From a virus (lineage: Duplodnaviria; Heunggongvirae; Uroviricota; Caudoviricetes): DNA of 8,054 nucleotides. The stretch is taken from IMG/VR virus record IMGVR_UViG_2778261448_000002, positions 1-8,054 of that record; one strand, written 5' to 3'. The position numbers and the translations under genes were made by a program. Numbering within the stretch: the first letter of the stretch is position 1; every line of letters starts with the position of its first letter. The notes under the pieces were generated by a model. That model made no database searches and was not told the origin of the DNA. It worked only from the letters and a program-made list of their open reading frames with translations. Shown here piece after piece: positions 1,776-1,975 of the stretch.

Positions 1776-1895
1776 AAGCAACTCCATCTGGCAGGTGAAA
1801 ATCGGGTTTATTTATATATTTCAATTAATTGCAAACTAGTCTAATGACAGGGAGAAAAAAATATTGTACAGGTGAAAAGAGAAATAACTTTTAAT

Positions 1896-1908
1896 TATCA
1901 ATAAATTA
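1896..1908 (+). promoter_or_regulatory. IHF-like consensus site (WATCAANNNNTTR) in putative cosB region
   Basis: Sequence tATCAAtaaaTTA matches the IHF consensus and lies between the candidate cosN and the Nu1-like start, as in lambda cosB. Such matches are common in AT-rich DNA. Confidence 0.25.
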
Positions 1909-1954
1909 CCGAACATGCTGCCGCCGCCATGGAAATGCAAAAACTAGCCTTTTT

Positions 1955-1975
1955 CCGCGACGCTCCCGCCCCGTG
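1955..1975 (-). other. Candidate cosN (cohesive-end site)
   Basis: Minus strand reads CACGGGGCGGGAGCGTCGCGG, close to lambda cosN as recalled (ACGGGGCGGCGACCTCGCGGG). It is a GC-rich island in AT-rich DNA about 180-200 bp upstream of the Nu1-like start, the expected cos position. Confidence 0.4.

What the first reader, a model, noticed from the sequence alone, without database searches (positions are those of the whole stretch)
1790..1975. Lambda-like cos region: candidate cosN plus IHF site and CAGGTGAAAA direct repeats as possible cosB elements
The minus strand has a GC-rich segment ACGGGGCGGGAGCGTCGCGG closely resembling lambda cosN as recalled, and a local dyad (GTGGCaagGCCAC) lies next to it. 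Between it and the Nu1-like start are an IHF consensus match (1896..1908) and repeated CAGGTGAAAA-like motifs (1792..1801, 1869..1878, and a looser copy at about 1849..1860) that could be small-terminase binding sites. This would define the packaging site and predict a 12-nt cohesive end.
Basis: partly seen in the sequence, partly recalled or inferred. Interest (0 to 1): 0.4.

Follow-up and report, generated by a model that had tools for sequence, protein, structure and literature searches.

The report
Lambda-type phage packaging site (cos)
This is the DNA-packaging (cos) site of a lambda-like E. coli prophage of the cdtI/Tritos type, where the phage enzyme cuts its genome to leave 12-base sticky ends; it is real but ordinary, and found in about one in six complete E. 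coli genomes.

Summary

- **Cut site:** The predicted 12-nt 5' cohesive end is GGGCGGGAGCGT, window 1971 down to 1960. The GenBank records of phages cdtI and Tritos start at exactly this base.
a canonical cosQ (GGGTCCT, 1995-2001), 23 nt from the nick as in lambda. Sequence conservation among 64 related prophages begins sharply there.
- **Terminase genes:** The adjacent large terminase belongs to the lambda gpA family. The small terminase is DUF1441, only a remote homologue of Nu1.
- **IHF site:** The consensus at 1896-1908 sits at left-end bp 64. It keeps that position and orientation, with 0-1 mismatch, in 17 of 22 diverged relatives.
- **Repeats:** The two exact CAGGTGAAAA copies are the best-preserved part of a 77-bp tandem duplication. 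Each copy lies 17 nt from an IHF-like core. They are plausible small-terminase sites, but one copy is polymorphic among phages with identical TerS. A conserved block at the lambda R3 position (1910-1927) was overlooked.
- **Dyad:** GTGGCaagGCCAC is not conserved and is probably incidental.

No virion-end data exist for this element, so the ends and protein contacts remain inferred.

The parts
1995..2001 (-). cosQ (GGGTCCT), the packaging-termination element. It lies 23 nt upstream of the top-strand nick, as in lambda.
   Evidence: Identical to lambda bp 48473-48479 with the same spacing. Conservation among 64 distinct related prophage sequences starts abruptly at this heptamer.
1973..1985 (.). 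Dyad GTGGC-aag-GCCAC in the cosQ-cosN spacer, overlapping the left flank of cosN. Probably incidental.
   Evidence: Present in only about a third of the near-identical relatives. It is replaced by GGGGGCCCC, GGGGGTCCC and other sequences elsewhere. This is the most variable spot between cosQ and terS.
1960..1971 (-). cosN cohesive-end sequence. Predicted 12-nt 5' overhang GGGCGGGAGCGT, with nicks after 1972 on the minus strand and before 1960 on the plus strand. The core with its flanks is 1955-1976.
   Evidence: The cdtI and Tritos records begin at the base equivalent to window 1971 and end at the base equivalent to 1972. Eight of 12 bases match lambda, and all differences lie at bp 7, 8, 9 and 11. 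The flanking CG...CG pairs are kept. This matches the natural variation pattern described in PMC4669245.
1928..1959 (-). I2-like segment (left-end bp 13-44): CGCGGAAAAAGGCTAGTTTTTGCATTTCCATG, with dA5 and dT5 tracts.
   Evidence: Conserved across the whole DUF1441-TerS family. It is also shared at 89-98% with phi458/mEp460-type phages whose TerS is only 42% identical; that homology stops at about bp 40. It corresponds to lambda I2, bp 18-50 (PMC4856287).
1910..1927 (-). Conserved block at the position of lambda R3 (left-end bp 45-62, GCGGCGGCAGCATGTTCG).
   Evidence: It aligns with CTGTCAGCAGCAGGTG in relatives, which carries the inverted CAGGTG core. Lambda R3 is bp 50-65 and its distance to cosN is critical (PMC9026076). 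In the window the core is degenerate (CAGCATGT), so the assignment rests on position only.
1896..1908 (+). IHF site I1, an exact WATCAANNNNTTR match (left-end bp 64-76).
   Evidence: The only exact match in the window. Invariant in 65 close sequences. The best match falls at bp 63-65, same orientation, with 0-1 mismatch in 17 of 22 diverged relatives (11 exact), and at bp 62 in phi458.
1866..1878 (-). R-like element, copy 1: TTTTCACCTGTAC (left-end bp 94-106), 17 nt after the I1 core.
   Evidence: Exact 10-mer repeat. TCACCT and CACCTG are the most repeated 6-mers in cosB across the family. However, it is polymorphic (TTTTTACCTG, TTTTCAGCTG) in many loci whose TerS is at least 99% identical.
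1839..1859 (-). Degenerate copy and start of the second unit: TTTTTCTCCCTGTCATTAGAC (bp 113-133).
Evidence: CCCTGTCATTAGAC aligns with CTGTCA(C/T)CT blocks of relatives.
1819..1831 (+). Second IHF-like site: TTTCAATTAATTG, one mismatch (bp 141-153), 77 bp from I1.
   Evidence: Found, where a one-mismatch match is not significant by itself. A match with at most one mismatch recurs at bp 140-142 in 12 of 22 relatives, 2 of them exact.
1788..1801 (-). R-like element, copy 2: TTTTCACCTGCCAG (bp 171-184), 17 nt after the second IHF-like core and just upstream of the terS ribosome-binding site.
   Evidence: Exact repeat. It is homologous to TTTCACCTGACAG, conserved at this position in relatives with about 55% TerS identity.
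1788..1931 (-). cosB as a whole: two tandem ~77-bp units, each made of a GC-rich/R-like block, an IHF-like site, 17 nt, then TTTTCACCTG.
   Evidence: Ungapped self-identity is 50% at offset 77 and at most 35% at other offsets; P=0.0025 in shuffles. The best offset is 76-78 in most relatives, and 68% in the Trabulsiella locus L096.
1248..1787 (-). terS, the small terminase (DUF1441). The probable true start is the ATG at 1775.
   Evidence: Pfam PF07278, E=1.7e-44. PHROG 141 'terminase small subunit'. 100% identical to TerS of cdtI, Tritos and HannyBb. Start inferred.
1..1239 (-). 5' part of terL, the large terminase of the lambda gpA family. This is the enzyme expected to nick cosN.
   Evidence: GpA_ATPase E=1.5e-81 and GpA_nuclease E=8e-22. 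PHROG 15.

Best explanation
Window 1788-2001, read on the minus strand, is the cos site of a lambdoid prophage of the cdtI/Tritos type.

Proposed mechanism, by analogy with lambda:
1. The DUF1441 small terminase (TerS) binds repeated TCACCTG-type elements in the AT-rich cosB (1788-1931) through an N-terminal helix-turn-helix.
2. Host IHF helps by bending the DNA at 1896-1908, and possibly also at 1819-1831.
3. This anchors the gpA-type large terminase (TerL) on cosN. TerL nicks the two strands 12 bp apart, leaving the 5' overhang GGGCGGGAGCGT (1971..1960).
4. DNA is then packaged towards terS and terL, that is, towards lower window coordinates.
5. [quoted passage not shown]

Shown here: sequence identity and homology of every element, the positional conservation, and the gene families.
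Inferred: the actual ends, the protein-DNA contacts, and the role of each repeat.
For: - Deposited genomes of cdtI and Tritos start and end at exactly this junction. Their left ends are 98.6-99% identical to the window. Tritos makes virions and plaques (PMC9928086).
- The lambda signature is present: cosQ, the 23-nt spacing, ACG|GGGCGG and CGCGG. It occurs by chance in 0 of 200 shuffles.
- Differences from lambda fall only at cohesive-end bp 7, 8, 9 and 11, the half reported to vary freely in nature (PMC4669245).
- Conservation among 64 related loci begins at cosQ.
- TerL is of the gpA family. TerS and Nu1 cross-hit each other's PHROG families at E=1e-9 and 6e-8.
- The IHF consensus is invariant in close relatives and positionally conserved in distant ones.
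- cosB has a significant 77-bp two-unit structure carrying the repeats.
- The repeated motif class changes together with residues at the start of the TerS recognition helix.
- cosQ, cosN and I2 are shared with phi458-type phages that have a different cosB and TerS. This modularity parallels lambda versus phage 21.
Against: - No virion-end data for this element or for cdtI/Tritos could be retrieved. The cdtI paper is not held, and the related LLS end is explicitly inferred.
- Repeat copy 1 varies at 2 of its 6 core bases in many loci with at least 99% identical TerS.
- The R3-position block in the window lacks a clean inverted copy of the motif.
- Repeat orientation differs between the window and its relatives at about 55% TerS identity, so no single lambda-style R3-I1-R2-R1 scheme fits all.
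- Repeat copy 2 abuts the ribosome-binding site, so it could be conserved for translation.
- The relatives are phylogenetically related, so the conservation counts are not independent.
Confidence: 0.85

Rival explanations
1. It is a genuine cos, but the CAGGTGAAAA repeats are not the TerS recognition sites. They would be left over from a 77-bp tandem duplication, or serve translation of terS. TerS would then bind mainly the proximal block at bp 45-62, as in phage N15, where a single R3 site suffices.
For: - Copy 1 is polymorphic among loci with at least 99% identical TerS.
- Copy 2 lies directly before the terS ribosome-binding site.
- In lambda the R3 position and its spacing are the critical features, and N15 uses R3 alone (PMC9026076; PMC4669245).
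Against: - TCACCT-type words are the most repeated 6-mers in cosB throughout the family.
- The motif class covaries with the TerS helix-turn-helix.
- Both exact copies keep an identical 17-nt distance from an IHF-like core.
- The leader RNA shows no unusual structure, z=+1.6.
Confidence: 0.25
2. The cos is intact in sequence but belongs to a defective, grounded prophage, so it is no longer used for packaging in this host.
For: - An IS1 lies at 7620-7997.
- No spanin gene lies between the endolysin and cos, where cdtI has Rz.
- The window carries a 1-nt insertion in the cosQ-cosN spacer that none of the 64 distinct relative sequences compared has.
Against: - terS and the visible 413 codons of terL are open.
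- In the 99.9% identical ETEC strain, portal, protease-capsid and the other head genes follow intact.
- The 23-nt spacing equals lambda's, and both 22 and 23 nt occur among relatives.
Confidence: 0.15
3. It is a chance resemblance of GC-rich DNA to lambda cosN, and there is no packaging site here.
For: Only 8 of the 12 cohesive-end bases match lambda, and the lambda 20-mer fails at up to 3 mismatches.
Against: - The composite signature occurs in 0 of 200 shuffles.
- The position immediately upstream of terS and terL is as expected.
- The site is identical to deposited phage genome ends.
- The conservation boundary falls at cosQ.
Confidence: 0.01

Closest known systems
Bacteriophage lambda cos (cosQ-cosN-I2-cosB with R3-I1-R2-R1; Nu1/gpA terminase)
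   Same: - The cosQ heptamer is identical and lies 23 nt from the nick.
- cosN shares bp 1-6, 10 and 12 and the flanking CG pairs.
- An AT-tract I2-like segment follows cosN.
- An IHF consensus lies in cosB near lambda I1.
- The terS start is about 185-197 bp from the end (lambda: 191).
- TerL is of the gpA family.
   Different: - The cohesive end differs at bp 7, 8, 9 and 11.
- TerS is DUF1441, not Pfam Phage_Nu1.
- The cosB sequence is unrelated to lambda's.
- cosB is organised as two ~77-bp units with two IHF-like sites, rather than one I1 between inverted R3 and R2.
Phages cdtI (NC_009514/AB285204) and Tritos (OV696610), E. coli lambdoid phages
   Same: TerS is 100% identical. The left end is 98.6-99% identical over 772 bp. 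Both records start at the base equivalent to window 1971 and end at the base equivalent to 1972.
   Different: - The sequence upstream of cosQ differs. cdtI has Rz and orf60, whereas the window has an Ais/PmrG-like phosphatase gene.
- The cosQ-nick spacer is 22 nt in both phages against 23 nt here.
- I could not verify how the depositors chose the ends.
Gifsy-2, mEp460/phi458, mEp213 and LLS: other lambdoid phages with a DUF1441 TerS and a fused protease-capsid head module
   Same: - The gene order is the same and TerL is a gpA-type terminase.
- phi458 has identical cosQ, cosN and I2 and an IHF consensus at bp 62.
- The LLS record annotates a 12-nt 5' end, GGGCGGCGCGCT, at the homologous position.
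   Different: - TerS is only 40-42% identical, and the cosB sequences and repeats are different.
- Gifsy-2 has a divergent cosN and the AGGTACT form of cosQ.
- The LLS end is inferred, not measured.
Phage N15 'simple' cos
   Same: It has lambda-like cosQ and cosN with variation in cohesive-end bp 7-12 (PMC4669245).
   Different: N15 has a single R3 site, no IHF site, and a terS start at bp 89. The element here is long (about 185 bp), repeat-rich and carries IHF sites.

Membership tests
lambda-like cos (12-nt 5' cohesive ends related to lambda's, as defined in PMC4669245) | [quoted passage not shown] | tested here: met
   ACG|GGGCGGGAGCGT|CGCGG against lambda ACG|GGGCGGCGACCT|CGCGG. Bases 1-6, 10 and 12 and both CG flanks are identical.
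lambda-like cos | The cosQ heptamer GGGTCCT upstream of cosN at lambda-like spacing | tested here: met
   GGGTCCT at 1995-2001(-), 23 nt from the nick, the same as lambda 48473-48479.
lambda-like cos | A gpA-family large terminase and a small terminase encoded immediately downstream of cosB | tested here: met
   GpA_ATPase and GpA_nuclease domains. PHROG 141 terminase small subunit.
lambda-like cos | [quoted passage not shown] | tested here: inconclusive
   The IHF consensus is present and positionally conserved. Repeats are present. Their orientation scheme and actual TerS binding are not established, and the R3-position block is degenerate.
lambda-like cos | Virion DNA physically carries 12-nt complementary 5' extensions at this site | not testable with these tools
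   The only evidence is indirect: the cdtI and Tritos records are opened at this base. The primary paper is not held.
Pfam Phage_Nu1 (PF07471), the lambda small terminase family | A significant match to the Phage_Nu1 model | tested here: not met
   Only DUF1441 (PF07278) is hit, whereas lambda Nu1 hits PF07471 at 2.5e-100. Remote homology is indicated by reciprocal PHROG cross-hits of 1.1e-9 and 5.6e-8 and by a weak hhalign match over the helix-turn-helix, E=0.043.
MerR-like winged helix-turn-helix DNA-binding domain (the fold class I recall for the Nu1 DNA-binding domain; from memory, not checked here) | The N-terminal domain adopts this fold | tested here: inconclusive
   The AlphaFold2 model has mean pLDDT 74.7. 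For the first ~50 residues, the Foldseek matches that align only about 45-63 residues are to RacA, BldC, Xis and MerR-type domains, but only at E of about 0.7-2 and probability 0.25-0.87.
IHF binding site | The core consensus WATCAANNNNTTR with an AT-rich flank | tested here: met
   TATCAATAAATTA at 1896-1908, preceded by the AT-rich sequence AGAAATAACTTTTAAT. The local chance is 2.6%. Actual IHF binding was not tested.

The most novel reading that the evidence does not exclude
Phages with a DUF1441 small terminase may assemble their packaging-initiation complex on a cosB built from two tandem ~77-bp modules, each with an IHF-type bend plus a TCACCTG-type element 17 nt away. That would give a doubly bent nucleoprotein structure, different from lambda's single I1 flanked by inverted R3 and R2. 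The element orientation flips between lineages by CC-to-GG changes within a CANNTG frame, and it co-evolves with residues at the start of the TerS recognition helix.
Probability: 0.3. Interest if true: 0.35.

Novelty: new member of a known kind. Interest (0 to 1): 0.18.

Why it matters
- **Practical use:** Knowing the cos fixes the physical ends and map orientation of a very common family of E. coli prophages. The full site is in 874 of 5,426 complete genomes, where it is not annotated. The family includes toxin- and effector-carrying phages such as cdtI. The site also predicts which DNA, including cos-bearing islands or plasmids, these phages can mobilise.
- **Biological interest:** This family keeps lambda's cosQ, cosN and gpA-type nuclease but pairs them with a different small terminase and a differently organised cosB. 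That makes it a natural comparison for how packaging specificity evolves.
- **Limits:** None of this overturns current understanding. The finding extends the known lambda-type cos to a common prophage family.

Tried and rejected
- **RNA structure in the terS leader:** The MFE is no better than shuffles, z=+1.6. Rejected.
- **The dyad next to cosN as a functional element:** It is not conserved, and the best dyad falls at different places in different relatives. Rejected.
- **Promoter or terminator in 1700-2900:** None was found by the consensus scans.
- **Direct membership of TerS in Phage_Nu1:** Not met.
- **Profile search of solved structures:** It gave only a marginal MarR hit, E=0.33.
- **hhalign against a single Nu1 sequence:** Weak.
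- **Whole-model Foldseek:** No significant hit.
- **Experimental end mapping in the literature:** The cdtI paper and Vahanian et al. 2017 are not held. The Tritos paper does not discuss cos. The Ayreon and LLS ends are inferred. The exact 12-mer appears in no relevant paper.
- **The repeat finder:** At seed 6 it did not report the CAGGTGAAAA pair. The pair was confirmed with the DNA search instead.

Full report
**Context.** The window is part of an E. coli lambdoid prophage. Its first 4.4 kb are 99.9% identical to prophages in porcine ETEC strains. In those strains the gene order, read on the window's minus strand, runs as follows: holins; M15 endolysin; an oppositely oriented LPS-phosphatase gene; a DUF1441 protein; the large terminase; a small hypothetical protein; portal; and a ClpP-like protease/capsid fusion. 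The phage map therefore runs on the minus strand. The finding lies between the lysis cassette and the terminase genes, which is where lambda has cos.

**The observation.**
- A pattern made only of the bases shared with lambda (GGGTCCT, 20 free bases, ACGGGGCGG, 6 free bases, CGCGG) matches once, at 1955-2001(-). It matches in none of 200 shuffles.
- Inside the AT-rich cosB (25-32% GC), an exact IHF consensus arises in 2.6% of local shuffles.
- A direct repeat of 10 nt or more arises in 4.4% of local shuffles. Those two features need outside support.

**cosN and cosQ.**
- Megablast against phage records shows that cdtI (AB285204/NC_009514) and Tritos (OV696610) align at 98.6-99% up to their first base, which corresponds to window 1971.
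- cdtI begins GGGCGGGAGCGTCGCGG and ends ...GGGTCCTTCCGGTGGGGTGGCCTGCCACG. Tritos ends the same way.
- The window reads GGGTCCT-CCCGGTGGGGTGGCCTTGCCACG|GGGCGGGAGCGT|CGCGG.
- Lambda reads GGGTCCT-TTCCGGTGATCCGACAGGTTACG|GGGCGGCGACCT|CGCGG.
- The cosQ heptamer, the 23-nt distance to the nick, cohesive-end bp 1-6, 10 and 12, and the CG pairs on either side are all identical.
- The four differences (bp 7, 8, 9, 11) lie in the half that Feiss and colleagues report as free to vary in nature, while cosQ and bp 1-6 are conserved (PMC4669245).
- Among 64 distinct upstream sequences from 80 IMG/VR prophages with at least 99% identical TerS, identity to the window is near zero upstream of cosQ. It becomes essentially complete from the first G of GGGTCCT onward.
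- Tritos is a live phage that forms virions and plaques (PMC9928086).
- I could not find primary end-mapping data for any of these phages. The 12-nt overhang therefore remains a strong inference.

**The enzymes.**
- The ORF to the left is a lambda gpA-type large terminase, with GpA_ATPase and GpA_nuclease domains.
- The 'Nu1-like' ORF is DUF1441/PHROG 141 'terminase small subunit', not Pfam Phage_Nu1.
- It does hit Nu1's PHROG family at 1e-9, and Nu1 hits its family at 6e-8.
- hhalign aligns the helix-turn-helix segments weakly.
- In an AlphaFold2 model of moderate confidence, the N-terminal ~50 residues resemble MerR/Xis/RacA-type winged helices only at weak scores.
- It is best described as a remote homologue and functional counterpart of Nu1.
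- Homologues and RefSeq start the protein at the ATG at 1775, 6 nt after GGAG.

**The IHF site.**
- The consensus at 1896-1908 (left-end bp 64-76) is invariant in all 65 close sequences.
- I compared 22 representatives from other Enterobacterales (Scandinavium, Providencia, Proteus, Morganella, Pantoea and others). Their TerS is 49-86% identical and their cosB spacers have diverged.
- In 17 of the 22, the best match to the consensus falls at bp 63-65, in the same orientation, with 0-1 mismatch (11 exact). It is usually the only exact match in that cosB.
- phi458, with a 42% identical TerS and unrelated cosB repeats, has an exact site at bp 62.
- This is good evidence for a functional I1-like site.

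**The repeats and the architecture of cosB.**
- The two exact TTTTCACCTG copies (phage strand; bp 94-103 and 171-180) are 77 bp apart.
- A one-mismatch IHF-like site (1819-1831, bp 141-153) lies 77 bp from I1.
- In both units the motif starts 17 nt after the IHF-type core.
- Ungapped self-identity of cosB peaks at offset 77: 50%, against at most 35% at other offsets. This level is reached in 0.25% of shuffles.
- Most relatives peak at offsets of 76-78, and a Trabulsiella prophage does so at 68% identity.
- The second IHF-like site recurs at bp 140-142, with at most one mismatch, in 12 of 22 relatives.
- cosB in this family is therefore two tandem modules.
- TCACCT, CACCTC, CACCTG and CTGTCA are the words most often repeated within cosB across the family.
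- The motif class changes together with the TerS residues at the turn and start of the recognition helix:

| TerS helix-turn-helix residues | cosB motif |
|---|---|
| HRD (window type) | TTTTCACCTG |
| NRG | TGTCACCT / CACCTGACAG |
| DRK | GGACACC / GGTGTCC |

These observations favour the repeats as TerS sites. Four points count against a simple reading.
- Copy 1 carries C-to-T or C-to-G changes in its core in many loci with at least 99% identical TerS.
- Copy 2 abuts the ribosome-binding site.
- At the copy-1 position, relatives have the inverted core (CAGGTG).
- The block at bp 45-62 (1910-1927) occupies the place of lambda's critical R3 (bp 50-65; PMC9026076), but in the window it is only a degenerate inverted match (CAGCATGT).

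The sequences are also related by descent, so the counts are not independent.

**Modularity.** phi458/mEp460-type phages share window 1932-2024 (cosQ, cosN and I2 up to about bp 40) at 89-98% identity. Their TerS is only 42% identical and their cosB repeats are different. This parallels lambda and phage 21, which share cosQ and cosN but differ in cosB/TerS specificity.

**Rejected ideas.**
- The dyad GTGGCaagGCCAC is absent from most relatives and sits in the most variable stretch of the site.
- The leader RNA is not unusually structured.
- No promoter or terminator consensus lies nearby.

**Verdict.** This is a correct identification of an ordinary, very widespread element. The whole site is in 874 of 5,426 complete E. 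coli genomes, and its cosQ-cosN part is in 2,117 genomes. It is a new, uncharacterised member of the lambda-type cos family. The mildly interesting feature is a duplicated IHF-plus-repeat cosB read by a DUF1441 small terminase.

Noticed in passing
window 2200-2793 (+): A very AT-rich (15-30% GC) moron-like gene encodes an Ais/PmrG-type LPS core heptose(II)-phosphate phosphatase (NCBIfam NF011945, 1.4e-61). It sits immediately upstream of cosQ and is antisense to the late operon, roughly where lambda carries bor (from memory).
   Followed up: partly
window 2794-2864 and 2865-3248 (-): No Rz/Rz1 spanin ORF lies between the M15 endolysin and cos, where phage cdtI has an Rz-like spanin and orf60. 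The phosphatase gene occupies that space, so lysis could be spanin-independent or impaired.
   Followed up: no
loci L090, L092, L093, L096-L104, L106, L108, L109, L113, L128 and Gifsy-2 (L086:690-710): Many relatives with a DUF1441 TerS carry AGGTACT instead of GGGTCCT at the cosQ position, at the same 22-23 nt distance from the nick. This is natural cosQ variation, which PMC4669245 says is not apparent among lambda-like phages.
   Followed up: partly
locus L097 (Morganella psychrotolerans), about 190 bp upstream of terS: A prophage with a DUF1441 TerS (56% identical) has exactly lambda's cohesive-end sequence, GGGCGGCGACCT. The lambda cosN allele is therefore not tied to Nu1-type small terminases.
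   Followed up: no
window about 1979-1980 (cosQ-cosN spacer): The window has a 1-nt insertion (CCTTGCC against CCTGCC). This gives a 23-nt cosQ-nick spacing as in lambda. All 64 distinct close relatives, and cdtI and Tritos, have 22 nt.
   Followed up: partly
window 2047-2084 (-): GCATTACAGCAGTCCTTCAGTGAGGGGCTGCGATAATG, an imperfect 7-bp hairpin, is shared almost exactly with the cdtI right arm (just after orf60), although the flanking sequences differ. Its function is unknown.
   Followed up: no
window 4361-4435 and 4439-4514 (-): tRNA-Gly(TCC) and tRNA-Thr(TGT) genes lie in the late region between the Q-like antiterminator (4841-5503) and the holins. Homology to the ETEC prophages ends at 4438, between the two tRNA genes.
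   Followed up: no
window 6924-7685 (+) and 7620-7997 (-): An ORF with an HSDR_N restriction-enzyme N-terminal domain overlaps an IS1 transposase fragment at its 3' end. This suggests an IS1 insertion at the edge of the prophage early region.
   Followed up: no
window 1773-1787 (-): terS has two in-frame ATGs. Homologues and RefSeq use the second (1775), while the cdtI record uses the first (1787).
   Followed up: yes
loci L094, L097-L103, L106, L108, L109, L113: In relatives with about 55% TerS identity, the terS ribosome-binding region (GAGGTGACAATG) is nearly identical to an upstream cosB element (TTGAGGTGACAA), whose inverted partner (TTGTCACCTCAA) lies about 20 nt further on. This could mean TerS binds over its own start site, or that there are alternative RNA pairings. 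The window itself lacks this feature.
   Followed up: no
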